From: an uncultured Acidimicrobiia bacterium
GTDB taxonomy: Bacteria; Actinomycetota; Acidimicrobiia; Spongiisociales; UBA5794
NCBI GenBank assembly: GCA_963792405.1
Contig: CAWBVU010000005.1
Coordinates: forward strand, 355,668 to 419,667
Direction: 5' to 3'
Length of the DNA stretch: 64,000 nucleotides
Shown: in pieces, positions 10,157 to 49,502 of the stretch
Position numbering within the stretch: position 1 is the stretch's first letter
Layout of the letters: every line of letters starts with the position of its first letter
The notes under the pieces: generated by a model
Told to the model about the DNA's origin: nothing
Databases searched by the model: none
What the model saw: only the letters and a program-made list of their open reading frames with translations
Program-made: the position numbers and the translations under genes

Positions 10157-10252
10157 TCGTAAACCCCCCGGGCAGATTCGGCACCCTCAGGTGGCAATCT
10201 AGTCGGCGCCGCCACTAGCGGCATTGGGGAGGTGACGTTTCGCGGTGTGAAC

Positions 10253-27535: not shown

Positions 27536-27554
27536 ATCTTGGTACTCGTGGGCC

Positions 27555-28455: not shown

Positions 28456-28461
28456 AGTAGC

Positions 28462-32919: not shown

Positions 32920-33380
32920 TCCTTCTCCCCCTCCAAGTCGGTGCTCGCTCCGCTCGCTCCCCCTATCCCGTTCTGATCGGTGCTCGCTCCGCTCGCTCAT
33001 CCCTCTCAGTCCCCTCTTCCTTCTCCCCCTTTGGGGGAGATGCCCGAAGGGCAGAGGGGGGAGCCGCGATGCGGCGCTTCGTCCTCTCTGCGTGCTCCCC
33101 CTTCGGGGGAGAGACGAAGCAGGGAACCCTCTCTGCGTCGCTTCGCTCCGCGTCTCTCCCGCGGGGAGAGACGAAGCAGGGAGCCCTCTCTGCGTCGCTT
33201 CGCTCCGCGTCTCTCCCGCGGGGAGAGACGAATCGGTGCTCGCTTCGCTCGCTCATCCCTCTCTCTTCCCTGCGGGGGAGAAGCCCCAGCTCCACTTCCC
33301 TCTCCCCTTTGGGGGAGATGCCCGAAGGGCAGAGGGGGGAGCCGCGACGCGGGAGACACCCTCCGAGCGACGGCCGCTCG
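32920..33380. repeat. Composite hairpin repeat cluster E (inverted orientation)
   Basis: Reverse complements of H2 (cttccttctccccctttgggggagatgcccgaagggcagagggggg) and H1 (gtctctcccgcggggagagac). Confidence 0.85.
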
Positions 33381-35155: not shown

Positions 35156-35214
35156 GTGCCCAGGGGTCCTCCGTGGGCCACGCCACGCTACCGACTACGC
35201 AGCGCATATGCATC

Positions 35215-35712
35215 GTGACACGAACGCCAATGGGCCGGCTCCCCTCTGCCCTCCGGGCACCTCCCCAAAGGGGAGAGGGAAGCAGAGGTACGGGCACCTC
35301 CCCCAGAAGCAAGGATGAGCGAGCGCAGCGAGCCCAATGCTGTCTCTCCCCGCGGGAGAGACGCGGAGCGAAGCGACGCAGAGAGGGCCGCACCCTCGCA
35401 GACGCGGAGCGAAGCGACGCAGAGAGGGCCGCAGTACCGACGACCTCTGGAAGGACGCCTCCCGCACCCCACTCCCCCCTCTGCCCTCCGGGCATCTCCC
35501 CCAAAGGGGAGAAGGAAGCAAGGTGCGGGCACCTCCCGCGAGGAAGGATGAGCGAGCGCAGCGAGCCCAATGCTGTCTCTCCCCGCGGGAGAGACGCGGA
35601 GCGAAGCGACGCAGAGAGGGCCGCACCCTCGCAGACGCGGAGCGAAGCGACGCAGAGAGGGCCGCACCCTCGCAGACGCGGAGCGAAGCGACGCAGAGAG
35701 GGCCGCGGTGCT
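35215..35712. repeat. Composite hairpin repeat cluster F (its 3' end forms the left edge of the duplicated lasso cassette)
   Basis: H2-linker-H1-H1 modules repeated twice. The last 72 bp are also found at the duplication junction (40969-41040). Confidence 0.85.
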
Positions 35713-35729
35713 CCCGCTACGCTGATCGT

Positions 35730-36871
35730 ATGGCTGCTCCCCATCCGCTGTTGGCGCCGTTGATCGCAGGGGAACCCGTGCCGGACGACGCGGTGATCAC
35801 CCTCGACGTGGTGCGATCGGCTGAGGAGCACGGGGTCTCCGCGCTGCTCGACGACGTCCTCACACGGGGCGACTTCGACATCTCACCTCCGCAGGTGAAG
35901 CAGCGCCTCGCCATGCGAGCCCTCGAAGCCGCCGCGGAGAACCATGCCGCACTGATCGCGGTCGGAGAGGTGCTCGACGTCGCCGGTGCGCTCGGCATCG
36001 AGGTCGCCATCGCGAAGGGTGTGGCCGTGGGGTCCCGGTGCTACCCGAACCCCGACCTTCGGCCCACGATCGACGTGGACGTGTTCGCCGACCCCGGGTC
36101 CCTCGACCGCCTCGGCGACCTCGCCCTCGCCCTCGGGGCGTCTGCGCTCGACAAGATGGCGATCGACGCCATGGTCGCCGAAGGCCGCGTCTTCGAGGTG
36201 ACCCTGCCCACCAGCGGCGCCGACGTCGACCTGCACCGTGACCCGATGAACATGGTGCTGCCGTCGACCCGTGAACGGGACCGCTGGGACCGCACGACGA
36301 TGGTCGCCCTCCCGGACGGGACGAAGGTGCGGACCCTGGACCTCGAGGACACGGTGATCCTCGCCCTGCTGCACCTGTTCCGGGACAACTTCGCGATGCT
36401 GCTCCACGTCAACGACGTCCGCCTGATGATCGAGGCGGGCCCCGACTGGGACGAGGTCGAACGACGGGCGGCCGACGACGGCTGGACCGACATCGTCCGC
36501 TACGCCGCCTGGTTCGCCTCCGACACCTTCGGCATGCCGTCGCCCCTCCCCACCGCCATCGCACGGTGGCGCAAGGCGATCATCGACGCCGTCTGGCCCC
36601 GCTCACTGCTGCTGCAGGGGGCCGACAGCGTGGTGCGCAGCCAGCGCCGCCAGTCCGCCCTCTCGCTCCTCACCGTCCGGCCGCACCGAGCGCCCTCGCC
36701 TCCGCCTACGCCAGGCGGCTCTTCCCGTCCCGGACCGTGATCGACCAGCGCGGCGGCGCCTCCGACCTCTCGTACCCCGTGGCCCTCGCCGACTGGCGCC
36801 TCCGGCAGCGGCGGGAGAACCGGGCGATGATCGACGACGGCGGGGACCCGACACCGGAGCCGCCCCTGTGA
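35730..36871 (+). CDS. Nucleotidyltransferase-family protein (NTP_transf_5-like, lasso-cluster associated), copy 1; frameshift near 36680
   Basis: MAAPHPLLAPLIAGEPVPDDAVITLDV... is co-linear with the intact 379-aa copy 2. The C-terminus reads in the frame of ORF 36566..36871. Confidence 0.6.
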
Positions 36872-37122
36872 GGCGATCCGACCACGCCATGGCCCGCGAG
36901 CTCGACGGCGAGATCATCATCCTCGACGTGCCGTCGGGCCGGTACTTCGGGATCAACGACGTGGGCGCCGTGGTGTGGGGGCTGCTCGACGGGACCCACG
37001 ACCGTGACGCCATCGTCGATGCGGTGACCGCCGAGTTCGACGTCGATCGGGACACCGCCGCGGCCGACCTCGATGCGCTCCTCGACCAGCTCGTCGACGC
37101 CGGCCTCGTGGTGGACCCGTGA
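36868..37122 (+). CDS. PqqD-family protein (lasso B1 leader-recognition element), copy 1
   Basis: 84 aa: ELDGEIIILDVPSGRYFGINDVGAVVWGLLDG...IVDAVTAEFDVD. Confidence 0.75.
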   Translation: MRRSDHAMARELDGEIIILDVPSGRYFGINDVGAVVWGLLDGTHDRDAIVDAVTAEFDVDRDTAAADLDALLDQLVDAGLVVDP

Positions 37123-37536
37123 CCCAGGGGTCGTCCACCGTCGGCAGGATCCTCGTGGCACGAGCAGGTGTCCTGCTGACCCGGGTCGCCCTGCGCACCG
37201 CGGGCTTCGCCGCCACCATCCGAGCCCTGTCCGCGCTGCCACGGGTCCTGCACGCCACGACACAGCTCCCGACCCACGATGGGCAGGAGAGATCGCCACG
37301 GCGGACACCGCCAGGCTCGGAGGGACGTGCCTCGACCGGTCCGTGGCCCTGTGGTTCACCATGCGCCAGCACGGCCTCGACGGCGACCTGCGCATCGGCG
37401 TGGCGAGGAACGGTGACACCCTCGACGCCCACGCCTGGGTCGAGTACCAGCGGCGCGGTCCTCAACGACACCGCCGACGTCGCGCGACCGGTTCGCGGTA
37501 TTCGACGACGACCCGACGGACCTGGTGTTCACGTGA
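37119..37536 (+). CDS. Lasso peptidase B2 (transglutaminase-like Cys protease), copy 1, about 3 frameshifts
   Basis: Co-linear with intact copy 2. The catalytic block GTCLDRSVALWFTMRQHGLDGDLRIGVARNGDTLDAHAWVEY reads in the frame of ORF 37073. The stop TGA overlaps the GTG start of the kinase. Confidence 0.55.
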
Positions 37537-38264
37537 CGGCGGCGGCCACCATCGGCGGGGTCCGCTTCGTCATGGACACGCTCCTGATCGGGACGGGGGA
37601 CACCGGGTTCTCCGACCTCGAGCTCGAGGCCCGCTGGTTCGAGGGCGACGCTCCCGATGCGACGATGCTGGCGGCCCCCATGGGCCTCCACCTGTGGATC
37701 GACCACGAGGCCGGCGTCGTGCACCTCCCGGTCCTCGACGACGAGGTGGAGATGCGGGGCTGGCAGCTGCGCCAGGTGGCCCCGACCGTCGCCGCCTTCT
37801 ACGACCGGCTCACCCTCCACGCGTCCGCCGTGTCCGTCGATGGCCGTGTGCTGGCGTTCGTGGCGGGGTCGGGCACCGGCAAGACGACGCTCGCCTGGGC
37901 CCTCGTCAAGGCCGGCGCCGCGGCGATCAGCGACGACCTCCTCCCCATCCGGTTCGACGACCGCCCCGTCGTCCCGACGGACACCGATCGGCTTCCCGTC
38001 GCGGCGCTGTGCTTCCTCGACCGCCACGGCGGCGACCTCGCCGAGTCCACCCTCGAACCCGCGCTCGCCATGCGACGGCACATCGCCAACGGCTTCGGGG
38101 AGCACGGCGAGCCGAGGGTGTGGGGCTTCCAGTTCGACGCCTACCACCGCCTCGTCACCGAGGTCCCCCACGTCGACCTGGTGGTCCCCGACGACCGCGA
38201 GCAGGTGGCATCCGTCGCCGAGCGACTCATCGACCTCGTCCGCACCGGCGGGCTGGGCGGCTGA
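37533..38264 (+). CDS. HPr kinase/phosphorylase-like kinase (lasso tailoring kinase candidate), copy 1
   Basis: 243 aa with P-loop FVAGSGTGKTTLAWALVKAG. Lies inside ORF 37119..38264. Confidence 0.7.
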   Translation: MTAAATIGGVRFVMDTLLIGTGDTGFSDLELEARWFEGDAPDATMLAAPMGLHLWIDHEAGVVHLPVLDDEVEMRGWQLRQVAPTVAAFYDRLTLHASAVSVDGRVLAFVAGSGTGKTTLAWALVKAGAAAISDDLLPIRFDDRPVVPTDTDRLPVAALCFLDRHGGDLAESTLEPALAMRRHIANGFGEHGEPRVWGFQFDAYHRLVTEVPHVDLVVPDDREQVASVAERLIDLVRTGGLGG

Positions 38265-40029
38265 TGGGCGGCCTCGCCGTCGCCGTCGACTGGTCGGAGC
38301 GGCCCGAACCCTCGGCCTTCGCCCCGATGGTGGAGGCGATGGGACACCGCGGCCGTGCAGGCATCCGGACCGCAGATGCGGGTGCGGCGCTGCTGGCGGA
38401 GGCCCGGCTCCCAAGGGACGGGACGGAGGGCTGGCGCATCGCCACCGCAGGCCCGCTCACCCTCGTCGGTGACCTGCGCCTGTGGCACCTCGATGCCCTC
38501 CGCTCGCTGGCAGGGATCGACGACGCCGACCCCCGGATGCTGGCGCTCCACGCCTGGGCGGCCCACGGCGCAGCCATGATGGACGCCGTCGACGGCGACT
38601 TCGCCTTCGCCATCTGGGACGCCGACACCTCCACCCTCTTCGCCGCCAGGGACCGCTTCGGCGCCAAGCCGCTGTGGATCCAACAGACACCCGGCGGCAT
38701 CCGGCTCGCCTCCGGGACCGGCCAGCTCGTCGCCGCGACCGATCCCCGGCCGGGCCCCGACCCGGTGACGGTCGAGCGGTTCCTCCGCGACGAGGTCGCC
38801 TACGACGACCGCTCGTTCCACGAGGGGATCCGCCGCCTCATGCCCGCCCACCACCTCGTCGCCACCGCCGACGGTGTCACCACGACCCGGTATTGGAATC
38901 CCTCGGAGATCCCCGAACGGCCCGCCACCGACGTGCCCGCCACGTTCCGCCGCCTCGTCGTCGACGCCGTGGCGGACCGCCTCGCCGGTTCCATGCGCAC
39001 CGTCAGCGACCTCTCCGGGGGGCTCGACAGCTCATCGATCACCGCCGCCGCCCACGACCTCGTCCCCGATCGCCTCGACGCCGGGCGGTTCGTCACCGTG
39101 TCGGCGATCGTCCCCGGCACGGAGACCGACGAGTCACCATGGATCGCCGCGACGGTCGCGACCCAGCCGTTCGCCCACCGCGACCACACGGTGGGCATCG
39201 GGGACATCGACGACTACGCCGACGACATGGCCACCACCGGCATGCCCGTCGCCCACCACATCCGGGACCTCGCGGTACGCACCGCGGCGATCGCCGTAGA
39301 GGAGGGCGCCGACCTCGTCCTCACCGGCAACGGCGGTGACGAGGTCGCCGACGACCGGTGGATCCTCAGACACCTCCTGCGCACGGGACGGCTGTGGCCA
39401 TGGGGCCGCACCGTCGCCTCGATGGGCGCCCAGTCGCCGTACGCGGCGCGCTGTGGGCGGCCTCCTCGGTCGGCCAGGCGCTCCCACCCCGTGTCCGTCG
39501 GGCGATCCGCGGACAGTGGCGCCGCACGGACACCGAGGGCGCCGACGACAGCCACATGCCTCCCGGTGCCGGCATGCCCCACGACATCGCGTCACGCCTG
39601 CACACCGGACGGGGCCTCCTGGTGCTCGAGTGGCTCGAGGCCATGTACGCCGCCTCCGGCATCGAGGTGTCCCACCCGTACCTCGACCGCAGGATCGTCG
39701 AGTTCGTCGCCTCCCTCCCCGCAACGGCGATACCGGTGGGCATGGCGAACAAGGCGCTCATCAGGGGCGCGTTCCGGGGTGCCCTCCCCGACACGGTGGT
39801 CGACCGGACCGAGAAGGTGACCGGCAACGAGCACATCGACCGGGTCGTCGCGACCCAGGGACCGGCCTTCCTCGAGCGGTTCCCCGACGTGCCGGACCGG
39901 GCAGCCCCGTTCATCGATCCCGACCGGTATCGGGACGAGGTCGCCCGCTTCCACGCCGACGACGCCGATGCGGCAGGCGATCTGTGGCCCGCATGGTCCG
40001 TCATGCTCTGGCTCGACGGCGCACCCTGA
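38264..40029 (+). CDS. Asparagine-synthetase-like lasso cyclase (C protein), copy 1; frameshift near 39445
   Basis: MGGLAVAVDWSERP... Glutamine-amidotransferase-like N-terminal domain (DGDFAFAIWD, RDRFGAKPLW). PP-loop SGGLDSS. Co-linear with copy 2. Confidence 0.7.
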
Positions 40030-40077
40030 GTCGCCCCACCTCAAGATCCATGGGAAATCGGCCGATGTCGGTACGGT

Positions 40078-40248
40078 ATGCAGGGCATGAAGGCCTACCG
40101 AACGCCCGTTCTGGTGGAACTGGGCACGATGTCGCATGTCACTCGCAAGAGTGGCAGGAAGCGTGACATCCAGACCCTCGCCGCCGCACCCAAGACGGTG
40201 CCGCCCATCTGCGACATCATGCCCTGGCTCCCGCCCTGCAACCCCTAG
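40078..40248 (+). CDS. Candidate lasso-peptide precursor (56 aa), copy 1
   Basis: MQGMKAYRTPVLVELGTMSHVTRKSGRKRDIQTLAAAPKTVPPICDIMPWLPPCNP. The leader matches the conserved Y-x-x-P-x-L-x3-G-x5-T motif (YRTPVLVELGTMSHVT). Sits in a 240-bp gap between C and the methyltransferase. Absent from the ORF track (<60 aa). Confidence 0.5.
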   Translation: MQGMKAYRTPVLVELGTMSHVTRKSGRKRDIQTLAAAPKTVPPICDIMPWLPPCNP

Positions 40249-40272
40249 GCGACCTGCCTCCCTGACCCCGAT

Positions 40273-41052
40273 GTGACGACTCGCCCTATCGTGCGGGCCA
40301 TGGCGCACCCGATCACGACCGAGACGTCCGACACCGCCAGCCGCCTGGTCCGCTGGGAGCTCGCCTCGAGCCGCGCCAGCCAGGCACTCCTCGCAGGGGC
40401 ATGGGGCGCCCACGCAGGGATGTGGCTCGGGCTGATGGGCGACGCCGACCTCGCCGCCGCCACCGACGCCTTCTACCGCACCACCCCCAGGTGGCGCAAC
40501 GACGACTTCGTCCGCAGCGGGCTCGCCCCATGGGAGGCCGCCGCCGTCGAGGCCTGGTTCCCACCCTCTGGCCGTGTCCTCGTCCCGTCGGCGGGCGCAG
40601 CCCGGGAGATGCTCCCCCTCGCCGCGATGGGCTACGACGTCGTGGGCTTCGACCCGTCCCCTCCGCTCGTCGACTTCGGGAACCACGTGCTCACGGCGAC
40701 GGGCACTGCGGGGACGCTGCTGCACAGCCGGGCGAGCGACGTCCCCGAGGGCCTGGAGGGGCCGTTCGATGCGGTCCACTTCGGCTGGGGAGGGATCAGC
40801 CACGTCCGCTGGCGAGGGACCCGTGTCGCCATGCTGCGGTCGGTCCGCGCCCTGTGCGCCGACGGCGCCCCGATGCTGATCTCGTTCCTCACCCGGCCGC
40901 CGGACTCCCGCCGCTTCCACGTGGCCCGTTCCGTCGCCTCCGCCGTGGGTCGCCTCCGAGGCGACCGCGCGAAGCGACGCAGAGAGGGCCGCACCCTCGC
41001 AGACGCGGAGCGAAGCGACGCAGAGAGGGCCGCGGTGCTCCCGCTACGCTGA
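40273..41052 (+). CDS. Class I SAM-dependent methyltransferase, copy 1 (3' end replaced by junction/repeat sequence)
   Basis: Identical to copy 2 up to ...VGRLRGDR (~40968). It then reads into the 72-bp repeat fragment (AKRRREGRTLADAERSD...). Confidence 0.6.
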   Translation: MTTRPIVRAMAHPITTETSDTASRLVRWELASSRASQALLAGAWGAHAGMWLGLMGDADLAAATDAFYRTTPRWRNDDFVRSGLAPWEAAAVEAWFPPSGRVLVPSAGAAREMLPLAAMGYDVVGFDPSPPLVDFGNHVLTATGTAGTLLHSRASDVPEGLEGPFDAVHFGWGGISHVRWRGTRVAMLRSVRALCADGAPMLISFLTRPPDSRRFHVARSVASAVGRLRGDRAKRRREGRTLADAERSDAERAAVLPLR

Positions 41053-41056
41053 TCGT

Positions 41057-42196
41057 ATGGCTGCTCCCCATCCGATGTTGGCGCCGTTGATCGCAGGGGA
41101 ACCCGTGCCGGACGACGCGGTGATCACCCTCGACGTGGTGCGATCGGCTGAGGAGCACGGGGTCTCCGCGCTGCTCGACGACGTCCTCACACGGGGCGAC
41201 TTCGACATCTCACCTCCGCAGGTGAAGCAGCGCCTCGCCATGCGAGCCCTCGAAGCCGCCGCGGAGAACCATGCCGCACTGATCGCGGTCGGAGAGGTGC
41301 TCGACGTCGCCGGTGCGCTCGGCATCGAGGTCGCCATCGCGAAGGGTGTGGCCGTGGGGTCCCGGTGCTACCCGAACCCTGACCTTCGGCCCACGATCGA
41401 CGTGGACGTGTTCGCCGACCCCGGGTCCCTCGACCGCCTCGGCGACCTCGCCCTCGCCCTCGGGGCGTCTGCGCTCGACAAGATGGCGATCGACGCCATG
41501 GTCGCCGAGGGCCGCGTCTTCGAGGTGACGCTGCCGACCAGCGGCGCCGACGTCGACCTGCACCGTGACCCGATGAACATGGTGCTGCCGTCCACCCGTG
41601 AACGGGACCGCTGGGACCGCACGACGATGGTCGCCCTCCCGGACGGGACGAAGGTGCGGACCCTGGACCTCGAGGACACGGTGATCCTCGCCCTGCTGCA
41701 CCTGTTCCGTGACAACTTCGCGATGCTGCTCCACGTCAACGACGTCCGCCTGATGATCGAGGCGGGCCCCGACTGGGACGAGGTCGAACGACGGGCGGCC
41801 GACGACGGCTGGACCGACATCGTCCGCTACGCCGCCTGGTTCGCCTCCGACACCTTCGGCATGCCGTCGCCCCTCCCCACCGCCATCGCACGGTGGCGCA
41901 AGGCGATCATCGACGCCGTGTGGCCCCGCTCGCTGCTGCTGCAGGGGGCCGACAGCGTGGTGCGCAGCCAGCGCCGCCAGTCCGCCCTCTCGCTCCTCAC
42001 GTCCGGCCGCACCGGGGCGCTCACCTCCGCCTACGCCAGGCGTGCGTTCCCGTCCCGGACCGTGATCGACCAGCGCGGCGGCGCCTCCGACCTCTCGTAC
42101 CCCGTGGCCCTCGCCGACTGGCGCCTCCGGCAGCGGCGGGAGAACCGGGCGATGATCGACGACGGCGGGGACCCGGCACCGGAGCCGCACCTGTGA
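41057..42196 (+). CDS. Nucleotidyltransferase-family protein (NTP_transf_5-like), copy 2, intact
   Basis: 379 aa continuous ORF. Confidence 0.7.
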   Translation: MAAPHPMLAPLIAGEPVPDDAVITLDVVRSAEEHGVSALLDDVLTRGDFDISPPQVKQRLAMRALEAAAENHAALIAVGEVLDVAGALGIEVAIAKGVAVGSRCYPNPDLRPTIDVDVFADPGSLDRLGDLALALGASALDKMAIDAMVAEGRVFEVTLPTSGADVDLHRDPMNMVLPSTRERDRWDRTTMVALPDGTKVRTLDLEDTVILALLHLFRDNFAMLLHVNDVRLMIEAGPDWDEVERRAADDGWTDIVRYAAWFASDTFGMPSPLPTAIARWRKAIIDAVWPRSLLLQGADSVVRSQRRQSALSLLTSGRTGALTSAYARRAFPSRTVIDQRGGASDLSYPVALADWRLRQRRENRAMIDDGGDPAPEPHL

Positions 42197-42447
42197 GGCG
42201 ATCCGACCACGCCATGGCGCGGGAACTCGACGGCGAGATCATCATCCTCGACGTGCCGTCGGGCCGGTACTTCGGGATCAACGACGTGGGCGCCCTGGTG
42301 TGGGGGCTGCTCGACGGGACCCGCGACCGTGACGCCATCGTCGATGCGGTGACCGCCGAGTTCGACGTCGATCGGGACACCGCCGCGGCCGACCTCGATG
42401 CGCTCCTCGACCAGCTCGTCGACGCCGGCCTCGTGGTGGACCAGTGA
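42193..42447 (+). CDS. PqqD-family protein (B1), copy 2
   Basis: GTG start overlapping the upstream stop. 84 aa. Confidence 0.75.
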   Translation: MRRSDHAMARELDGEIIILDVPSGRYFGINDVGALVWGLLDGTRDRDAIVDAVTAEFDVDRDTAAADLDALLDQLVDAGLVVDQ

Positions 42448-42857
42448 CCCAGCGGTCGTCCACCGTCGGCAGGATCCTCGTGGCACGAGCAGGTGTCCTG
42501 CTGACCAGGGTCGCCCTGCGCACCGCGGGCTTCGCCGCCACGATCCGAGCCCTGTCCGCCATTCCCAGGGTCATGCGCGCCAGCCCGAGCCCCGATCCAC
42601 GGTGGGCAGGTGAGATCGCCACTGCGGCGACCGGCCGGCTCGGGGGGACGTGCCTCGACCGGTCCGTGGCCCTGTGGTTCACCATGCGCCAGCACGGCCT
42701 CGACGGCGACCTGCGCATCGGCGTCGCCCGCTCCGGTGACACCCTCGACGCCCACTCCTGGGTCGAGTACGACGGTGCGGTCCTCAACGACACGGCCGAC
42801 GTCGCCGACCGGTTCGCGGTGTTCGACGACGACCCGACGGACCTGGTGTTCACGTGA
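42444..42857 (+). CDS. Lasso peptidase B2 (transglutaminase-like), copy 2, intact
   Basis: 137 aa with C...H...D triad context (GTCLDRSVALWF, DAHSWVEYDG). Confidence 0.75.
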   Translation: MTQRSSTVGRILVARAGVLLTRVALRTAGFAATIRALSAIPRVMRASPSPDPRWAGEIATAATGRLGGTCLDRSVALWFTMRQHGLDGDLRIGVARSGDTLDAHSWVEYDGAVLNDTADVADRFAVFDDDPTDLVFT

Positions 42858-43585
42858 CGGCGGCGGCCACCATCGGCGGGGTCCGCTTCGTCATGGACAC
42901 GCTGCTGATCGGGACGGGGGACACCGGGTTCTCCGACCTCGAGCTCGAGGCACGCTGGTTCGAGGGCGACGCTCCCGATGCGACGATGCTGGCGGCCCCC
43001 ATGGGCCTCCACCTGTGGATCGACCACGAGACCGGGGTCGTGCACCTCCCGGTCCTCGACGACGAGGTCGAGATGCGGGGCTGGCAGCTGCGCCAGGTGG
43101 CCCCGACCGTCGCCGCCTTCTACGACCGGCTCACCCTCCACGCGTCCGCCGTGTCCGTCGATGGCCGTGTGCTGGCGTTCGTGGCGGGGTCGGGCACCGG
43201 CAAGACGACGCTCGCCTGGGCACTCGTCAAGGCCGGCGCCGCGGCGATCAGCGACGACCTCCTCCCCATCCGGTTCGACGACCGCCCCGTCGTCCCGACG
43301 GACACCGATCGGCTTCCCGTCGCGGCGCTGTGCTTCCTCGACCGCCACGGCGGCGACCTCGCCGAGTCCACCCTCGAACCCGCACTCGCCATGCGACGTC
43401 ACATCGCCAACGGCTTCGGGGAGCACGGTGAGCCGCGGGTGTGGGGCTTCCAGTTCGACGCCTACCACCGCCTCGTCACCGAGGTCCCCCACGTCGACCT
43501 GGTGGTCCCCGACGACCGCGAGCAGGTGGCATCCGTCGCCGAGCGACTCATCGACCTCGTCCGCACCGGCGGGCTGGGCGGCTGA
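42854..43585 (+). CDS. HPr kinase-like kinase, copy 2
   Basis: 243 aa, same P-loop as copy 1. Confidence 0.7.
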   Translation: MTAAATIGGVRFVMDTLLIGTGDTGFSDLELEARWFEGDAPDATMLAAPMGLHLWIDHETGVVHLPVLDDEVEMRGWQLRQVAPTVAAFYDRLTLHASAVSVDGRVLAFVAGSGTGKTTLAWALVKAGAAAISDDLLPIRFDDRPVVPTDTDRLPVAALCFLDRHGGDLAESTLEPALAMRRHIANGFGEHGEPRVWGFQFDAYHRLVTEVPHVDLVVPDDREQVASVAERLIDLVRTGGLGG

Positions 43586-45350
43586 TGGGCGGCCTCGCCG
43601 TCGCCGTCGACTGGTCGGAGCGGCCCGACCCCTCGGCCTTCGCCTCGATGGTGGAGGCGATGGGACACCGCGGCCGTGCAGGCATCCGGACCGCCAATGC
43701 GGGTGCGGCGCTGCTGGCGGAGGCCCGGCTCCCAAGGGACGGGACGGAGGGCTGGCGCATCGCCACCGCAGGCCCGCTCACCCTGGTCGGTGACCTGCGC
43801 CTGTGGCACCTCGATGCCCTCCGCTCGCTGGCAGGGATCGACGACGCCGACCCCCGGATGCTGGCGCTCCACGCCTGGGCGGCCCACGGCGCCGCCATGA
43901 TGGACGCCGTCGACGGTGACTTCGCCTTCGCCATCTGGGACGCCGACACGTCCACCCTCTTCGCCGCCAGGGACCGCTTCGGCGCCAAGCCGCTGTGGAT
44001 CCAACAGACACCCAGCGGCATCCGGCTCGCCTCCGGGACCGGCCAGCTCGTCGCCGCGACCGATCCCCGGCCGGGCCCCGACCCGGTGACGGTCGAGCGG
44101 TTCCTCCGCGACGAGGTCGCCTACGACGACCGCTCGTTCCATTACGGGATCCGCCGCCTCATGCCCGCCCACCACCTCGTCGCCACCGCCGACGGTGTCA
44201 CCACGACCCGGTACTGGGACCCGTCGGAGATCCCCGAACGGCCCGCCACCGACGTGCCCGCCACGTTCCGCCGCCTCGTCGTCGACGCCGTGGCGGACCG
44301 CCTCGCCGGTCCCAGCGCACCGTCAGCGACCTCTCCGGGGGGCTCGACAGCTCGTCGATCACCGCCGCCGCCCACGACCTCGTCCCCGATCGCCTCGACG
44401 CCGGGCGGTTCGTCACGGTGTCGGCGATCGTCCCCGGCACGGAGACCGACGAGTCGCCCTGGATCGCCGCAACGGTCGCGACCCAGCCGTTCGCCCACCG
44501 CGACCACACGGTGGGCATCGGGGACATCGACGACTACGCCGCCGATATGGCCACGACCGGCATGCCCGTCGCCCACCACATCCGGGACCTGGCGGTGCGC
44601 ACCGCGGCGATCGCGGTGGAGGAGGGCGCCGACCTCGTCCTCACCGGCAACGGCGGTGACGAGGTCGCCGATGACCGGTGGGTCCTCGCCCACCTCCTGC
44701 GGGCGGGACGGCTGTGGCCATGGGGCCGCACCGTCGCCTCGATGGGCGCCCAGTCGCCGTACGCGGCGGCGCTGTGGGCGGCCTCCTCGGTCGGCCAGGC
44801 GCTCCCGCCCCGTGTCCGCAGGGCGATCCGCGGACAGTGGCGCCGCTCGGACACCGAGGGCGCCGACGACAGCCACATGCCTCCCGATGCCGGCATGCCC
44901 CACCACGTCGCGTCACGCCTGCACACCGGACGGGGCCTCCTGGTGCTCGAGTGGCTCGAGGCCATGTACGCCGCCTCCGGCATCGAGGTGTCCCACCCGT
45001 ACCTCGACCGCAGGATCGTCGAGTTCGTCGCCTCCCTCCCCGCCACGGCACTACCGGTGGGTGTGGCGAACAAGGCGCTCATCAGGGAGGCGTTTCGGGG
45101 TGCCCTCCCCGACACGGTCGTCGACCGACAGGAGAAGGTGACCGGCAACGAGCACATCGACCGGGTCGTCGCGACCCACGGACCGGCCTTGATCGAGCGG
45201 TTCCCCGACGTGCCGGACCGGGCGGCGCCGTTCATCGATCCTGACCGGTATCGGGACGAGGTCGCCCGCTTCCACGCCGACGACGCCGATGCGGCAGGCG
45301 ATCTGTGGCCCGCATGGTCCGTCATGCTCTGGCTCGACGGCGCACCCTGA
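43585..45350 (+). CDS. Asn-synthetase-like lasso cyclase (C), copy 2; frameshift near 44305
   Basis: N-terminal part in ORF 43441..45141 up to ADRLAG, then continues in ORF 43995..45350. Confidence 0.7.
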
Positions 45351-45398
45351 GTCGCCCCACCTCAAGATCCATGGGAAATCGGCCGATGTCGGTACGGT

Positions 45399-45569
45399 AT
45401 GCAGGGCATGAAGGCCTACCGAACGCCCGTTCTGGTGGAACTGGGCACGATGTCGCATGTCACTCGCAAGAGTGGCAGGAAGCGTGACATCCAGACCCTC
45501 GCCGCCGCACCCAAGACGGTGCCGCCCATCTGCGACATCATGCCCTGGCTCCCGCCCTGCAACCCCTAG
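45399..45569 (+). CDS. Candidate lasso precursor, copy 2 (identical peptide)
   Basis: Same 171-nt ORF as 40078..40248. Confidence 0.5.
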   Translation: MQGMKAYRTPVLVELGTMSHVTRKSGRKRDIQTLAAAPKTVPPICDIMPWLPPCNP

Positions 45570-45593
45570 GCCACCTGCCTCCCTGACCTCGAC

Positions 45594-46440
45594 GTGACGA
45601 CTCGCCCTATCGTGCAGGCCATGGCGCACCCGATCACGACCGAGACAGCCGACACGCCCAGCCGCCTGGTCCGTTGGGAGCTCGCCTCGAGCCGCGCCAG
45701 CCAGGCACTCCTCGCAGGGGCATGGGGCGCCCATGCGGGGATGTGGCTCGGGCTGATGGGCGACGCCGACCTCGCCGCCGCCACCGACGCCTTCTACCGC
45801 ACCACCCCCAGGTGGCGCAACGACGACTTCGTCCGCAGCGGGCTCGCCCCATGGGAGGCCGCCGCCGTCGAGGCCTGGTTCCCACCCTCTGGCCGTGTCC
45901 TCGTGCCCGTCGGCGGGCGCCGCCCGGGAGATGCTCCCCCTCGCCGCCATGGGCTACGACGTCGTGGGCTTCGACCCGTCCCCTCCGCTCGTCGACTTCG
46001 GGAACCACCTGCTCACGGCGACCGGCACCGCCGGGACGCTGCTGCACAGCCGGGCGAGTGACGTCCCCGAGGGCCTGGAGGGCCCGTTCGATGCGGTCCA
46101 CTTCGGCTGGGGAGGGATCAGCCACGTCCGCTGGCGAGGGACCCGCGTCGCCATGCTGCGGTCCGTCCGTGCCCTGTGTGCCGACGGCGCCCCGATGCTG
46201 ATCTCGTTCCTCACCCGGCCGCCGGACTCCCGCCGCTTCCACGTGGCCCGGTCCGTCGCCACCGCCGTGGGACGCCTCCGAGGCGACCGCAGGCCCATCG
46301 AGCTCGGCGACACCGTCGACGGCAGCTTCGACCACTACTTCACCTTCGACGAGATGGAGTCCGAGCTCACCGACGCGGGGTTCACGACCGTGGCGCGGGT
46401 CGCCCAGCCCTACGCCCACGTCGTCGCCACGGCGTCGTGA
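45594..46440 (+). CDS. Class I SAM-dependent methyltransferase, copy 2, full length (282 aa) but with one frameshift near 45905
   Basis: SAM-binding GYDVVGFD motif. The C-terminal 50 aa (RPIELGDTVDGSFDHYFTFDEMESELTDAGF...) are absent from copy 1. Confidence 0.65.
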
Positions 46441-46460
46441 CCCGACCAGGAGCACGGCTG

Positions 46461-48300
46461 ATGGGGGGCTTCGCCGTCGTCATCGACTGGGACCGCCCCG
46501 TCGACCCCCACGCCACCGACCCGATGATGGCCCTCGTCCCGCACCGGGCCACGGGCGGCACCCGCACCCACGTCACGCCCCATGCCGTACTCGCCGAGGG
46601 CCGTACCACGCACCAGGTGGATGGCGGCCCATGGGAGGTCGCCACCCTCGGACCGCTGGCGATCGTCGGCGACATCCGCCTCTTCGACACGGGCCGCCTC
46701 CGCGCCGCGGCAGGCGGCAGTGCGGCCACCGACGGCCTCGACGACCGCCACCTCCTGCTCGCCGCCTACCGGCGCAGGGGCATCGGGTTCCTCGACGCCG
46801 TCGACGGAGACTTCGCCTTCGTCATCTGGGACGACGACTGAACGCAGTGTCCTCGCCGTCAGGGACCGCTTCGCCGTCAAACCGATCTTCTACGAGGAGA
46901 CAGCCACCGGCATCCGCTTCACCTCGGAGGTCAAGCAGCTGGCGGCGACATCACTGCGACCCCCCGAGCCTGACCCGTTGTCACTCGCCGAGTACGTCGA
47001 CCTACGACTTCCGGGAGAAACGCCGCACGTTCTTGACCGGGATTCAGCGCATCCCTGCATCCGGGCGATCATCGCCGCATGGCCACGCGCCCCGGGCGCT
47101 GCGCTACTGGGACCCGACGCCGCCAACCGCCAGCGCATGAGCCATCGAGCCTTCCCCACCTCTTCCGCGAGCACCTCATCGCCGCCGTCGATCGGCGGCT
47201 CGAGACCGTCCAGCCACACGGTCAGCCAGCTCTCGGGCGGTCTCGACTCCTCGTCCATCGCTGCAGCTGCGGCGATCCTCGCATCCCGCGGAGAGCCCCT
47301 GGCGTTCACCACCGTGTCGGCTGTGTACGACTTCCCGTCGATCGACGAGTCGGGGTGGATCGACGACATCGTCGCCAGCCAGCCCTTCCCCCACCACGAC
47401 TTCGTCCCCGAGGTCGCCGACATCGAGCAGTTCGATGCCGACATGTGGACGGTCGATGGACCGCTCGTCGACCCCATCCGCGACATGAAGCACGTCACCG
47501 CTCGAATCGCCGTCCAGCTCGATGCACCCCTCGCCTGACCGGGGCAGGAGGTGACCACCTTCTCTATCAGGCCCGCTACCTGGGCGACATCCTGCGATCC
47601 GGCCACCATCCGCCGCTTCGCCCGGGACACGACCGTCGTGCACGCGCGATGGTCCGGGATGGGGCTGCTGCCGACCCTCTCTGCCCCGGTACGACAGGCC
47701 ACACCGCCGCCGCGTCCGCTCCATTGGGCGAGGGGTCCGCCGCTGCCAGGAGCCGAGCATGCTGGGCAATCCCTCTTCACCGGGGCAATCGAGCAGGCAT
47801 CGGAATCGCGTCGGACGAATCCGAGCACCTCGGCTTTCGCTCAGCAACACAGAACGCCATCGCATCGGATCTGCGCGAACCGCTGGCTCGCATGGACCAA
47901 TGAGACGACAAGCGATGGTCTTTGGCGCGTCATGGAGTCGATCTCAGCCATCCGTATCTCGACCGGGACCTCGCACAGTTCGTCGTTGTCGATCGATCCG
48001 CTCGATCTACCGTTCGACGGCCGGTCGAAGACGCTCGTCCGCCAAGGCTTCGCGGACACGCTCCCGGGCTCGGTTCTCGGTCGTCGACTCACGACATTCG
48101 CCGATGAGTACATGCAGGAGGCGCTGCGTTCCCAGCGCACGGCAGTACCGGGAGTCGATTCGCCGAGCATGCCGCTGCCTGCGGCCCCGGCCTCATCGAC
48201 GAGGACGCCTACCGAAGCGCACTCAGCGAGTTCGACAGCGCGTGCTCCCGCCCAGAAGATGTGCACGCCTCTGCGTTCCTGGCGGGCCATGGCATGTGAT
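46461..48300 (+). pseudogene. Third, diverged Asn-synthetase-like (lasso cyclase-like) gene, heavily frameshifted
   Basis: MGGFAVVIDWDRPVDPHA...DGDFAFVIWDDD. Then RDRFAVKPIFYEE, SGGLDSSSIAAAA, HLLYQARYLGDILRSG and HPYLDRDLAQFVV lie in at least five different frames. AGGAG RBS. About 35% identity to the C copies. Confidence 0.5.
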
Positions 48301-48399
48301 GGTTGACGCTTGGCGCATACAGGGCCGCCGACGACGTAGGATCCCTGCCCATGGAGTCGAAACCCAAGAGTGCAGGATCGACGCCGCGGGCATACACGC

Positions 48400-49502
48400 C
48401 GCCCCGGCTTCGCCACTTGGGGCTCATGTCGGCGGTCACTCGGAAGACTGGACCTAGGGAACGACGGCCAACTGCCTCGACCCAAGCGGCCAGCCCTAGG
48501 CGCGCCCACCCGACGAGGGTCAGGCTGCGATGACCTCGCCAAGAGGTTGCGATGCGCGCGAACGCCGAACGACCCATCCGGGAGAGTCGTCGGCTCCGTC
48601 GGCACCGTCACGGTCCGGATCGACCCCGACGACACCGAGCGCAGGTCCCATGTCAGCGCCACGGCGTCACCGATCCCCAGAGTGTCCGACAGCACGATCG
48701 TGTCGTCGAGCTGCTCGGCGAGGCCGGCCAGTTCCACCGGTGACCGCACCGTCTTGAGCCGATCCAACAGCGCGAACATCAGCTCCTGCTGACGGGCCAC
48801 TCGCACGGCGTCACCGGTCTCGGCCTGGAACCGCCACTCGCCGTCGACGAGTTCCTGCGTGCGCCGGGACCGGATGTAGGCGAGGGCGTGCTCGCCGTCG
48901 ATCATGCGAGCACCCTGCGGGCACGAGGTCGTAGCCTCCCTCACGCAGGGCGTTTCCGAGCAGATCTGCACGCCGCCGACCGAGTCGACCATCTCGACGA
49001 GCGCATCGAACTTCATCAGGGCGAAGTGGTCGATCGGTACGCCCGAGAAGTCCTCGACCGCGACGGCCACCAGCTCGGCGCCGTTCACCTCGCCCGCACC
49101 CCTCCAGGGTGCGGTCCAGCTTCGTCTCACGACCGGTGCACGGGTCGACGACGACCAGTCGCGGGGAAACGAGACGATCGTCGGTGACCGTTCCCCTCCT
49201 CGGGGAGGAGGTAGAGCAGCACGGCGTCGGCGAACGCCGTCACCTGCTTGTGTAGTCGTTGGCGACGTCTCGTCGGAGCCGACCACGAGGACGGATTGGT
49301 ACGTCGTCGGGGGAACGGTGGCGGTGGCTCCCGCCAGCGTGGTCGTCGACGGAAGGTCTCGACGTGCCTCCTGAAGATCGAAGTCGACACGCTCGACCGA
49401 GTTCCATGCCACGAGTGCCCTCACGCCTTGGTATCCCACGAACGGCGACGAACACGGCCAGAAGGCACCCACTGCAAGCAGGATCTTCCTGCGTCTCGAC
49501 AC
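48400..49502 (-). CDS. LCP (LytR-CpsA-Psr) family protein (C-terminal boundary uncertain)
   Basis: N-terminal TM anchor, then SVLVVGSDETS...IVSFPRD...GVPIDHFALMKF...GEHALAYIRSRR. ORF 47841..49502 runs past the domain, probably through spurious read-through. Possible compensating frameshifts around 49250. Confidence 0.6.

What the first reader, a model, noticed from the sequence alone, without database searches (positions are those of the whole stretch)
35636..46440. Kinase- and nucleotidyltransferase-associated lasso-peptide gene cluster, present as a tandem duplication
Each ~5.33-kb copy encodes the same seven genes in the same order: an NTP_transf_5-like nucleotidyltransferase, PqqD (B1), a transglutaminase-like protease (B2), an HPr-kinase-like kinase, an Asn-synthetase-like cyclase (C), a 56-aa precursor and a SAM methyltransferase. 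This is the architecture of class II lasso RiPP clusters of the kinase-containing (paeninodin-like) type, with a methyltransferase added. Two diverged copies (~98-99% identical) in direct tandem is unusual for a RiPP cluster. It could double the dosage, or let two slightly different tailoring sets act on identical precursors.
Basis: partly seen in the sequence, partly recalled or inferred. Interest (0 to 1): 0.8.

Follow-up and report, generated by a model that had tools for sequence, protein, structure and literature searches.

The report
Duplicated lasso-peptide gene cluster, imperfectly assembled
This is a real gene cluster for a knotted "lasso" peptide, of an unstudied type found in uncultured Acidimicrobiia, sitting as two head-to-tail 97%-identical copies, but as assembled neither copy is fully intact and the peptide does not follow the rule of the known kinase-type family it was compared with.

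Summary
The duplication is real in the sequence: 35642-40968 and 40969-46290 are head-to-tail copies. They are 97.0% identical, not 98-99%, with 149 mismatches and 13 one-base indels. Profile searches confirm all seven gene families: NTP_transf_5, PqqD/B1, B2, an HPr-kinase-like kinase, the lasso cyclase, a 56-aa precursor and a class I methyltransferase.

"Seven genes per copy" holds only after repair. Nine indels break reading frames in copy 1 (A, B2, C) and copy 2 (C, MT). The junction also cuts off the conserved C-terminus of the copy 1 methyltransferase. No cyclase or methyltransferase gene is intact as assembled.

Differences between the copies show purifying selection (dN/dS 0.19). Six copy 1 insertions look like merges of two alleles, and frameshifts also occur in patches outside the cluster. 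I therefore judge most indels to be consensus errors (about 65%).

The precursor family (11 members) has an invariant YxxPxL...VT(R/K)|KS; D7 is invariant among the eight aligned members and present in two of the other three, and the two Cys are invariant in those eight. None ends in Ser, so the paeninodin rule fails. The closest precedent is ring-Ser phosphorylation by BsfK.

The locus also extends beyond the reported coordinates, with a second cyclase (46458-48305), a third precursor-like ORF and an upstream ABC exporter. Verdict: a new variant of a known kind, of moderate interest.

The parts
35241..35707 (.). REP-like intergenic repeat array (41-nt units inside a 233-nt higher-order unit). 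The left duplication breakpoint (35642) lies inside it, and its last 65 bp recur at 40969-41033.
   Evidence: Members of the same family lie in five other intergenic sites between 18.5 and 33.4 kb. No Rfam match.
35642..40968 (+). Copy 1 of the tandem duplication.
   Evidence: blastn self-hit 35642-40968 against 40969-46290, 96.96% over 5331 columns. Global alignment.
40969..46290 (+). Copy 2 of the tandem duplication. Unique sequence, the true 3' end of the methyltransferase gene, resumes at 46291.
35730..36871 (+). Gene A, copy 1: NTP_transf_5 nucleotidyltransferase. The frame is broken by 2 extra bases near 36673 and 36689.
   Evidence: The high-GC3 frame switches at about 36650. Removing 2 bases restores a 379-aa ORF. 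The extra bases are absent from L003 and from copy 2.
41057..42196 (+). Gene A, copy 2: NTP_transf_5 nucleotidyltransferase, 379 aa, intact.
   Evidence: PF14907, E 4e-31, profile positions 8-249 of 249.
36868..37122 (+). B1 (PqqD-like RRE), copy 1, 84 aa, intact.
   Evidence: PF05402 1e-21; lasso_PqqD_Strm 4e-17.
42193..42447 (+). B1, copy 2, 84 aa, intact. It differs from copy 1 at 3 residues.
37119..37536 (+). B2 leader peptidase, copy 1. The frame is broken by 4 extra bases (near 37258, 37267, 37450, 37484). This allele is 94-97% identical to the B2 of L004 and L003.
   Evidence: Removing 4 bases restores a 137-aa ORF.
42444..42857 (+). B2 leader peptidase (transglutaminase-like), copy 2, 137 aa, intact.
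   Evidence: PF13471 9e-19; NF033537 lasso_biosyn_B2 7.5e-19.
37533..38264 (+). HPr-kinase-like kinase, copy 1, 243 aa, intact.
   Evidence: HprK_rel_A 1e-6 and Hpr_kinase_C 5e-3, both below the curated cut-offs. H96, K117, D134 and D135 are invariant in 20 homologues.
42854..43585 (+). HPr-kinase-like kinase, copy 2, 243 aa, intact. One residue differs from copy 1.
38264..40029 (+). Lasso cyclase C, copy 1. One base is missing at 39447/39448, and L003 shares this deletion.
   Evidence: Adding one base gives a protein of about 588 aa that matches Asn_synthase 8e-33 and lass_lactam_cya 8e-52.
43585..45350 (+). Lasso cyclase C, copy 2. One base is missing at 44315.
40078..40248 (+). Precursor, copy 1 (56 aa): leader MQGMKAYRTPVLVELGTMSHVTR, predicted core KSGRKRDIQTLAAAPKTVPPICDIMPWLPPCNP.
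   Evidence: Y, P, L and T fall at -17, -14, -12 and -2 relative to K24 (rule from PMC10368454). Invariant columns in alignment A1. lasso_leader_L3 E 0.008, sub-threshold.
45399..45569 (+). Precursor, copy 2, identical to copy 1.
40273..41052 (+). Methyltransferase, copy 1. It is cut by the duplication junction at 40968, and its last 28 residues are read from repeat DNA.
   Evidence: It lacks the conserved C-terminal block of alignment A3.
45594..46440 (+). Methyltransferase, copy 2: full length (281 aa) once the extra G at 45905 is removed.
   Evidence: Methyltransf_25 8e-6, just below the cut-off. 19 homologues found.
46458..48305 (+). Second, diverged Asn-synthetase-like cyclase (C2), read in at least 4 frame segments.
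   Evidence: tblastn with C and with the L006 and L004 cyclases. The same extra cyclase follows the methyltransferase in L001 and L005; L006 and L011 also carry extra cyclases, in other positions.
48348..48533 (+). Third precursor-like ORF: ...AYTPPRLRHLGLMSAVTRKTGPR, then NDGQLPRPKRP in the next frame. It runs convergent with the LytR gene.
   Evidence: Counterparts are L001 KSGINLDGQSINKK... and L006 KSSIYPDGNSGKMDKKKP*.
30462..32228 (-). ABC transporter (fused membrane and ATPase domains), the candidate exporter/immunity protein.
   Evidence: ABC_membrane 2e-56, ABC_tran 5e-33. It is 73% identical to the syntenic L005 gene, and an ABC gene lies directly beside the L011 cluster.

Best explanation
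The region is a genuine lasso-peptide (RiPP) biosynthetic locus of an uncharacterised family seen so far only in uncultured Acidimicrobiia-type Actinomycetota. The gene set is nucleotidyltransferase (N), B1, B2, kinase (K), cyclase (C), precursor and methyltransferase (M). A second cyclase with its own precursor follows, and an ABC exporter lies nearby.

In this contig the N-to-M segment has been duplicated head to tail. One breakpoint falls in a REP-like intergenic repeat and the other inside M. Copy 1 therefore carries a truncated methyltransferase, and copy 2 follows copy 1 with only a 4-bp gap between their genes.

The two copies are diverged alleles (dS 0.07) that evolved under purifying selection and have exchanged tracts with related strains. 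Most of the nine frame-breaking single-base indels are probably consensus errors of a long-read metagenome assembly, not real lesions.

Inferred mechanism:
1. B1 binds the leader through YxxPxL.
2. The kinase phosphorylates the linear precursor, most plausibly on Ser2 of the core, which is invariant across the family. The nucleotidyltransferase may then decorate that phosphate.
3. B2 cuts after Thr-Arg.
4. C joins the alpha-amine of Lys1 to Asp7 to form a 7-residue ring.
5. The long tail carries two invariant Cys, which may form a disulfide.

The target of the methyltransferase is unresolved.

What is shown: the gene families, the duplication, the selection signature and the precursor conservation. 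What is inferred: the modification sites, the ring, the threading, the reality of the duplication in the organism, and the artefactual nature of the indels.
For: Gene families:
- All core families match profile models.
- Sequence motifs are present: SGGLDSS in C, Cys/His/Asp in B2, and the Walker A motif GSGTGKT in K.
- His-Lys-Asp-Asp is invariant in 20 kinase homologues, with H-to-K and K-to-DD spacings of 21 and 17/18 as in BsfK (PMC10368454).

Precursor:
- Y7, P10, G16, V21-T22-R23-K24-S25-G26, D30, C45 and C54 are invariant in 8 sequences from 5 loci.
- Y, P and L fall at -17, -14 and -12 from K24, the published register (PMC10368454).
- The short third-type cores after the second cyclase keep the K1...D7 pattern: KSSIYPD and KSGINLD.

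Gene set: the same set recurs in L001, L004, L005, L006, L007-L009 and L011.

Duplication. The junction is blunt and joins unrelated sequence (methyltransferase interior to repeat), which an overlap-based mis-join would not produce.

Selection: 93.7 synonymous against 51.3 non-synonymous differences, dN/dS 0.19, p = 4e-22 against neutrality, and no nonsense codons.

Indels as artefacts:
- Six copy 1 insertions are absent from the copy-1-type contig L003 and from L004. They sit exactly where the two allele types differ, and they read as merges of both alleles.
- Deleting them restores full ORFs.
- Frameshifts also occur in patches outside the cluster: the CbiA/Wzz-like gene, the epimerase, C2, and 54.5-59 kb. 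Meanwhile 0.7-28 kb and 49.6-54.5 kb read cleanly.

Precedent for ring-Ser phosphorylation in a cluster with both K and N genes: BsfK acting on Ser3 (PMC10368454).
Against: - As assembled, no cyclase and no methyltransferase gene is intact, so the locus could be dead.
- The single-copy C2 gene is also frameshifted, which cross-mapping between the two copies cannot explain.
- The copy 1 deletion at 39447 is shared by the independent contig L003 and may be real.
- All relatives come from long-read metagenome assemblies that carry frameshifts of their own, so no clean reference exists.
- There are no reads and no independent contig spanning the junction.
- Lys at core position 1, a 33-residue core and a 7-residue ring are unusual for lasso peptides.
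- One distant precursor (L011, KSFVKGGSKKD) has no acidic residue at positions 7-9.
- The kinase matches the HPr-kinase models only below their curated cut-offs.
- The Ser2 target and the role of the nucleotidyltransferase rest on analogy alone.
Confidence: 0.6

Rival explanations
1. Real duplication, but a decaying locus. After the duplication the cluster lost function, and the frameshifts in A, B2, C (both copies), MT and C2 are true mutations. No lasso peptide is made.
For: - Nine frame-breaking indels lie in 10.6 kb, with at least 3 more in C2. Large flanking stretches read cleanly.
- The -1 at 39447 is shared with L003.
- The copy 1 methyltransferase is truncated in any case.
- C2 or C3 is also fragmented in L001, L005 and L006.
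Against: - dN/dS of 0.19 with no nonsense codon is not what neutral decay long enough to fix 9-12 indels would leave.
- The precursors are identical and intact.
- Six insertions are chimeras of two allele types and are absent from the nearest independent sequence.
- Unrelated neighbouring genes (CbiA-like, epimerase) are frameshifted too, which points to sequence quality rather than selection on this pathway.
Confidence: 0.28
2. Assembly artefact. The organism has one copy, and two co-existing strain alleles (copy-1 type and copy-2 type) were strung together by the assembler.
For: - The related ENA metagenome assemblies ERZ25039600 and ERZ25039514 hold several variants of this cluster. L003 is about 94-98% identical and of copy-1 type, and L004 is about 84% at the kinase.
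- The copy 1 consensus shows allele mixing.
- Divergence with low dN/dS is what orthologous alleles from two strains would show.
- No independent contig spans the junction.
Against: - The junction joins the interior of the methyltransferase gene to a repeat unit with no shared sequence. An overlap-based join has nothing to align there, and a strain bubble would be collapsed or split, not placed in series.
- Relatives show real multi-copy rearrangements of the same genes: L006 has K-C-pre-A-B1-B2-C-pre-MT fragment-C, and L011 has two cyclases.
- A chimeric read would have to join the two alleles in the same orientation, in a way that exactly mimics a tandem duplication.
Confidence: 0.2
3. One reading: a functional paeninodin-type class II cluster whose kinase phosphorylates the C-terminal Ser, with the duplication doubling dosage or offering two tailoring sets.
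For: A kinase and an NTP_transf_5 gene accompany B1, B2 and C, as in the paeninodin and pseudomycoidin clusters (PMC8498205). The precursors are identical in both copies.
Against: - No precursor in the family ends in Ser.
- Two Cys are invariant in the eight aligned precursors.
- Copy 1 lacks a complete methyltransferase.
- The tailoring enzymes differ by only 0-3 residues in K and B1, so there are not two distinct tailoring sets.
- Gene order and phylum differ from the described Firmicutes and Proteobacteria types (PMC8498205).
Confidence: 0.07

Closest known systems
Bsf lasso cluster of Bradymonas sediminis (BsfK/BsfN; PMC10368454)
   Same: A split B1/B2, a C, an HPr-kinase-like K and a nucleotidyltransferase N. 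The precursor does not end in Ser. The kinase phosphorylates a Ser inside the ring (Ser3) of the linear precursor, helped by B1. YxxPxL sits at -17 to -12. The kinase motif H...GxxGxGK(S/T)...DD has the same spacing.
   Different: Here the leader keeps Thr(-2), not Ile. The core starts with Lys rather than Gly. The predicted ring has 7 residues (K1-D7) rather than 8 (G1-D8). The invariant Ser is at position 2. A methyltransferase and a second cyclase belong to the set. The tail is long and has two Cys. The host is an actinomycete lineage. Whether BsfN is a PF14907 protein was not checked.
Paeninodin / ThcoK / SyanK kinase-type lasso clusters (PMC9266682, PMC8498205)
   Same: An HPr-kinase homologue with catalytic His-Lys-Asp-Asp sits next to B1, B2 and C. 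Some of these clusters also carry a nucleotidyltransferase.
   Different: The defining C-terminal Ser of the precursor is absent in all 11 relatives. The gene order and phylum are different. No ABC transporter lies inside the operon.
Pseudomycoidin (PsmK + PsmN; PMC9266682)
   Same: A kinase plus nucleotidyltransferase pair, which in that system gives a phospho-hexosylated peptide. It is the only functional precedent for the N gene.
   Different: There the modification is on the C-terminal Ser. That system is from Bacillus and has no methyltransferase.
Lassomycin-type C-terminal O-methyltransferase clusters (StspM; PMC9266682) and PIMT-type aspartimide clusters
   Same: An actinobacterial lasso cluster with a SAM-dependent methyltransferase.
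   Different: The methyltransferase here matches only generic class I models (Methyltransf_25, with weak TPMT and daptide_MTase hits). It matches neither the mitomycin-O-MT-like fold ascribed to StspM nor PIMT.
Class IV lasso peptides (LP2006, felipeptins; PMC7689547 title; details from my own knowledge)
   Same: If the two invariant Cys are oxidised, the only disulfide would lie within the tail, which is what defines class IV.
   Different: Not tested. The core is far longer (33 aa) and the cluster carries K, N and M genes.

Membership tests
Lasso peptide biosynthetic gene cluster | RRE / PqqD-like B1 | tested here: met
   PF05402 E 1e-21, full-length match. NF033530 lasso_PqqD_Strm 4e-17, below its strict cut-off. 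Both copies are intact.
Lasso peptide biosynthetic gene cluster | Transglutaminase-like leader peptidase B2 | tested here: met
   NF033537 68 bits against a cut-off of 33; PF13471 9e-19. Copy 2 is intact; copy 1 is frameshifted as assembled.
Lasso peptide biosynthetic gene cluster | Asn-synthetase-like lasso cyclase C | tested here: met
Neither copy is intact as assembled.
Lasso peptide biosynthetic gene cluster | Precursor with YxxPxL at -17 to -12, Thr at -2, and Asp/Glu at core position 7-9 | tested here: met
   Y7, P10, L12 and T22 are at the right distances from K24, and D30 is core residue 7. The Y, P, VT and KS columns are invariant across the family, D7 is invariant in the eight aligned precursors and present in all but two of the eleven, and L(-12) is F in one member. 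The NCBIfam leader model gives only E 0.008. One distant member lacks D/E at 7-9.
Lasso peptide biosynthetic gene cluster | Threaded lariat product | not testable with these tools
   Needs expression, MS/MS, and protease/heat stability tests or NMR.
Paeninodin-type (C-terminal phospho-Ser) lasso clusters | HPr-kinase homologue with His-Lys-Asp-Asp | tested here: met
   H96, K117, D134 and D135 are invariant in 20 homologues. They align to HprK 1jb1. The Pfam and NCBIfam hits are sub-threshold.
Paeninodin-type (C-terminal phospho-Ser) lasso clusters | Conserved C-terminal Ser in the precursor | tested here: not met
   The ten precursors that read through to a stop codon end in P, R, R, R, R, P, D, N, P or V; the eleventh, the L011 ORF at 3969-4253, has no clear end. 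None ends in Ser.
Bsf-type (ring phospho-Ser) lasso clusters | [quoted passage not shown] | tested here: inconclusive
   Ser2 is invariant, and K and N are present. The phosphorylation site itself cannot be tested here. The kinase was not aligned to BsfK itself.
Class II lasso peptides (no disulfide) | No Cys cross-links in the mature peptide | not testable with these tools
   Two Cys in the tail are invariant in the eight aligned precursors, so class II is doubtful. Their oxidation state is unknown.
Lassomycin-type C-terminal methyl-ester clusters | StspM-like O-methyltransferase (homology-modelled on mitomycin 7-O-methyltransferase; PMC9266682) | tested here: not met
   Only Methyltransf_25, TPMT and Methyltransf_23 gave weak hits. 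The fold search is generic; MitM, another mitomycin-pathway methyltransferase, appears only at rank 50.
Tandem segmental duplication | Two adjacent direct copies with a novel junction | tested here: met
   The junction at 40968|40969 joins the methyltransferase interior to a repeat unit.
Tandem segmental duplication | Support from reads or an independent assembly spanning the junction | not testable with these tools
   No reads are available. L003 stops 430 bp short of the junction. The source contig is the same assembly.

The most novel reading that the evidence does not exclude
Acidimicrobiia make a lasso-peptide type not yet described. It would have a Lys1-Asp7 seven-residue ring whose invariant Ser2 is phosphorylated by the HPr-kinase homologue and then decorated by the nucleotidyltransferase. 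It would also have an unusually long (about 26-residue) tail locked by a Cys-Cys bridge and modified by a dedicated methyltransferase. One set of B1/B2/K enzymes would serve two cyclases and several precursor types. In this reading the tandem duplication is real and both copies are functional, so it captures amplification of a RiPP cluster at a REP-rich, recombination-prone locus.
Probability: 0.2. Interest if true: 0.65.

Novelty: new variant of a known kind. Interest (0 to 1): 0.42.

Why it matters
Lasso peptides are stable scaffolds with antibiotic and receptor-binding activities. Tailored ones, whether phosphorylated, glycosylated or methylated, are rare, and only a handful of kinase-type systems have been studied, in Firmicutes and Proteobacteria.

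This locus defines a conserved gene set (N-B1-B2-K-C-A-M plus a second cyclase) in an uncultured actinomycete class. The library search found no lasso work on that class. Its precursor breaks the C-terminal-Ser rule, and the invariant K-S-G...D motif gives a concrete, testable site for ring phosphorylation.

The duplication, if real, would be a rare snapshot of whole-cluster amplification.

There is also a practical lesson. Several genes of both copies are split by single-base indels in the public record, so automated mining would find no intact cyclase or methyltransferase gene here.

Tried and rejected
- Source look-ups: exact-product look-ups for window proteins returned nothing on record, so the sample of origin could not be named.
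- Genome scan: the genome-contig scan with C found only one true relative, L001.
- Metagenome scans: the scan with the precursor alignment found 55 pattern hits, but none passed tblastn. The repeat scan with the kinase alignment gave 4 loci.
- RNA and signals: Rfam found nothing in the window. The promoter/terminator scan was no better than shuffles.
- Microhomology at the junction: a GC-rich motif resembles part of the repeat, but the junction is not in register with it. I reject microhomology-mediated crossover as shown.
- Sulfur-directed methyltransferase: phmmer's best PDB hits were Ecm18 (4NEC), a thiol methyltransferase and TPMT, at E 0.003-0.3 (PMC10491745). However, the AlphaFold model (pLDDT 86) matches N-, O-, C- and S-methyltransferases equally, with Ecm18 only at rank 46. 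The substrate stays open.
- Class V (Lys side chain to C-terminus): this needs a clostripain-like transpeptidase (PMC13178200). None is present. The neighbouring trypsin-like gene is not conserved next to the cluster in L005.
- 'All indels come from cross-mapping between the two copies': rejected as a complete explanation, because C2 and the flanking genes are frameshifted too.
- Coding-potential screen: a GC3-only screen was misleading because antisense frames also score high. I replaced it with GC1/2/3 patterns and domain continuity.

Full report
**1. Observation**

A self-comparison of the window gives one dominant hit: 35642-40968 against 40969-46290, at 96.96% identity over 5331 columns (repeat families). 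A global alignment counts 5169 identities, 149 mismatches and 13 single-base indels. The copies are adjacent with no spacer.

Divergence is uneven. There are 2 mismatches in the first 500 bp, but 21 in 250 bp and then 13 in 250 bp across B2. So the duplication exists, but it is about 97% identical, not 98-99%.

**2. Gene content**

The window is 67.7% G+C, and the cluster is 72-73%. Because of this I used codon-position G+C to follow the coding frame and rebuilt each gene.

- NTP_transf_5: PF14907, 4e-31.
- PqqD: 1e-21; lasso_PqqD 4e-17.
- Transglut_core3: 9e-19; lasso_biosyn_B2 68 bits against a cut-off of 33.
- Asn_synthase 8e-33, GATase_7, and the lasso cyclase model 8e-52.
- An HPr-kinase-like protein, with sub-threshold hits to HprK_rel_A (1e-6) and Hpr_kinase_C (5e-3).
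- A class I methyltransferase: Methyltransf_25 8e-6, with weak TPMT and daptide_MTase hits.

The 56-aa ORF is identical in both copies.

**3. Integrity**

The frame plot and the alignment show that nine of the 13 indels break reading frames. The other four form two compensating pairs that are really substitutions.

| Copy | Gene | Lesion |
|---|---|---|
| 1 | A | +2 bases (36673, 36689) |
| 1 | B2 | +4 bases (37258, 37267, 37450, 37484) |
| 1 | C | -1 base (39447) |
| 2 | C | -1 base (44315) |
| 2 | MT | +1 base (45905) |

Each lesion is repaired by a single base, giving full-length proteins with no stop codons.

The right breakpoint of the duplication lies inside the methyltransferase gene. 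The copy 1 MT therefore reads 232 homologous residues and then 28 residues of repeat DNA. It lacks the nearly invariant C-terminal block ELGDTVxGxFDHYFTxDE seen in 15 homologues.

As assembled, the intact genes are A (copy 2), B1 (both copies), B2 (copy 2), K (both) and the precursor (both). No cyclase or methyltransferase gene is intact.

**4. Are the indels real?**

Four lines of evidence bear on this.

- **Selection.** Substitutions between the copies are strongly biased towards synonymous changes: 93.7 synonymous against 51.3 non-synonymous, dS 0.072, dN 0.014, dN/dS 0.19, p = 4e-22 against neutrality. No nonsense codon is present. Neutral decay long enough to fix nine or more indels should have left far more replacement changes.
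- **Allele merging.** I aligned both copies with two contigs from an ENA metagenome assembly: L003, a noisy 5-kb contig of the copy-1 allele type, and L004, a more distant relative. The six copy 1 insertions are absent from both. They sit exactly where the two allele types differ, and they read as merges of the two. For example, copy 1 has GCACGCCACGACACAGCTCCC, L003 and L004 have GCACGC-ACGACAC-GCTCCC, and copy 2 has GCGCGCCA-GCCCGAGC-CCC.
- **Patchy frameshifts elsewhere.** A CbiA/Wzz-like gene (28922-30471) and an epimerase (33404-34267) each fall into three frames relative to single ORFs in L005 and L006. C2 falls into at least four segments. Partial-domain ORFs occur at 54.5-59 kb. In contrast, some 25 genes at 0.7-28 kb and 49.6-54.5 kb give domain matches that each stay within one frame, nearly all of them full-length. 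This patchiness fits local consensus problems in strain-variable regions.
- **Evidence the other way.** The -1 at 39447 is shared by L003, which carries a compensating +1 sixteen bases upstream. C2 is single-copy and yet broken.

I put about 65% on most indels being artefacts.

**5. Is the duplication real?**

The junction is blunt...GAGGCGACCGC|GCGAAGCGACGC.... It joins the interior of the methyltransferase gene to a unit of the 41-nt REP-like repeat, and the two parental sites share no sequence. An overlap-based mis-join of two strain alleles has nothing to align there.

Relatives show real rearrangements of the same genes. L006 reads K-C-precursor-A-B1-B2-C-precursor-MT fragment-C, L011 has two cyclases, and L005 has REP arrays and a SnoaL gene inserted between C and the precursors.

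The public source contig has the same structure (two kinase members, and MT calls of 250 and 169 aa), but it is the same assembly. No independent sequence spans the junction. I estimate a 75-80% chance that the duplication is real.

**6. Mosaic history**

L004 is only 50-85% identical to the window over most of the unit. It is 94-98% identical to copy 1 across B1-B2, where copy 1 and copy 2 differ by 9-10%. The locus therefore exchanges tracts between strains. The two copies are best seen as diverged alleles, not a fresh in-place duplicate.

**7. The wider locus**

- A second, diverged Asn-synthetase-like gene follows copy 2 at 46458-48305. It is 35-46% identical to C.
- A third precursor-like ORF lies at 48348-48533 and has the same leader: AYTPPRLRHLGLMSAVTRKTG.
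- L001 and L005 have the same extra cyclase after the methyltransferase. In L001 and L006 a short third-type precursor follows the last cyclase: KSGINLDGQSINKK... and KSSIYPDGNSGKMDKKKP*.
- Upstream lies an ABC transporter (30462-32228, minus strand). It is 73% identical to the syntenic gene in L005 and matches an ABC gene directly next to the L011 cluster.
- The whole region sits in a cell-envelope polysaccharide neighbourhood that is shared with those relatives.

**8. The precursor family and the inferred mechanism**

Eight precursors from five loci align with these invariant positions: Y7, P10, G16, M18, V21, T22, R23, K24, S25, G26, D30, C45, P49, L51 and C54. Y, P and L sit at -17, -14 and -12 from K24, and Thr sits at -2. 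This is the published register for lasso leaders (PMC10368454). The core therefore starts at Lys24.

Asp at core position 7 is the only invariant acidic residue, because the Asp after the first Cys is Ala in L006. The third-type cores keep the K1...D7 pattern. This points to a seven-residue Lys1-Asp7 ring; the 7-9-residue rule is given in PMC8498205. The remaining 26 residues hold the motif PPxCDxxPWLxxC.

The kinase keeps His-Lys-Asp-Asp (H96, K117, D134, D135 invariant in 20 homologues). These align with the catalytic residues of HprK 1jb1, and their spacing matches BsfK (PMC10368454).

Known lasso kinases phosphorylate the linear precursor. No family member ends in Ser, and Ser2 is the only invariant hydroxyl residue in the core. 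I therefore infer phosphorylation of ring Ser2, by analogy with BsfK acting on Ser3. A possible further decoration by the NTP_transf_5 protein would follow the PsmN precedent (PMC9266682). These steps are inference only.

**9. The methyltransferase**

It belongs to a small family of 19 homologues. One is annotated as coming from an Acidimicrobiales MAG. The family travels with the cluster even when the gene order differs (L007-L009).

Sequence search of the PDB gave weak best hits to Ecm18 (4NEC, the disulfide-to-thioacetal enzyme; PMC10491745), a thiol methyltransferase and TPMT. That is tempting, given the two invariant Cys. However, a confident model of homologue P0066 (pLDDT 86) matches N-, O-, C- and S-methyltransferases about equally, with TM-scores near 0.5 and Ecm18 at rank 46. 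The substrate is unresolved.

**10. Comparison with known systems**

This is a lasso cluster by every testable criterion.

It is not a member of the paeninodin/ThcoK/SyanK group, whose defining feature, a conserved C-terminal Ser, was tested and not met. It works most like the Bsf system (K plus N, with ring-Ser phosphorylation), but it differs in these ways:
- Thr at -2;
- Lys at core position 1;
- the ring size;
- the methyltransferase;
- the second cyclase;
- the Cys pair;
- the phylum.

Its methyltransferase is neither the lassomycin/StspM type nor the PIMT type. Class II cannot be asserted.

Library searches found no paper on lasso peptides of Acidimicrobiia or on tandem duplication of a lasso cluster. 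Absence from that library is not proof of absence.

**11. Verdict**

| Question | Verdict |
|---|---|
| Observation | Partly confirmed |
| Novelty | New variant of a known kind |
| Interest | Moderate |

The precursor/kinase logic is a good experimental lead. The duplication and the functional state of the genes depend on read-level checks that I could not make.

Noticed in passing
window 18572-19018, 22592-23129, 27241-27516, 27882-28464, 33009-33367 (inverted), 35241-35707, 40969-41034: A dense REP-like intergenic repeat family. It has a 41-nt unit, 88- and 233-nt higher-order units, and hairpins such as TCTCTCCCCGCGGGAGAGA. It fills most intergenic gaps over 17 kb and has no Rfam match. L005 has an analogous but different family around its lasso genes.
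   Followed up: partly
window 27537-27902 (+): A DUF559 / Vsr-like endonuclease-domain ORF (E 1e-31) with REP arrays on both sides. It may be linked to the spread of the repeats.
   Followed up: no
window 28922-30471 (+) and 33404-34267 (+): A CbiA/Wzz-like gene and an NAD-dependent epimerase each read in three frames, compared with single ORFs in L005 and L006. Frameshifts are therefore not confined to the duplication.
   Followed up: yes
window 54482-58950: ORFs that match only part of their domain: Bac_transf 70-178 of 179, Hepar_II_III_N 84-220 of 340, and only the C-terminal domain of GFO/IDH/MocA. G+C falls to 60-62% by 58-64 kb. This may be another low-quality or foreign patch.
   Followed up: partly
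window 8756-9899, inside ORF 7016-10186 (-): A 324-bp tandem repeat, about 3.5 copies at 92-95% identity, inside a 1057-aa Calx-beta/PKD/fn3 surface-protein gene. Separately, 7159-7717 is 76% similar, in inverted orientation, to 24704-25261.
   Followed up: no
window 34334-35194 (-): A trypsin-like serine protease gene directly upstream of the cluster's repeat array. It is not next to the cluster in L005, so it is probably unrelated.
   Followed up: partly
L004 4438-4822; L005 13644-14016: Relatives carry two different precursor genes side by side. The second type is ...VTRKSGVDYDLEIFDFASAGNPPPICDLYPWLWFCP or ...KSGNRFDFETFEWTQDGERPPWLCDLFPWLCD. The window instead has the first type twice, through the duplication.
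   Followed up: partly
L006 3475-12444; L011 1912-9697: Other Acidimicrobiia-type contigs carry two or three cyclase genes and rearranged orders of the same gene set. The L011 precursor KSFVKGGSKKD... has no acidic residue at positions 7-9.
   Followed up: partly
window 36887-37487 compared with L004 1199-1863: The B1-B2 tract of copy 1 is 94-98% identical to L004, although the rest of L004 is only 50-85% identical. This is a recombination tract shared between otherwise diverged clusters.
   Followed up: yes
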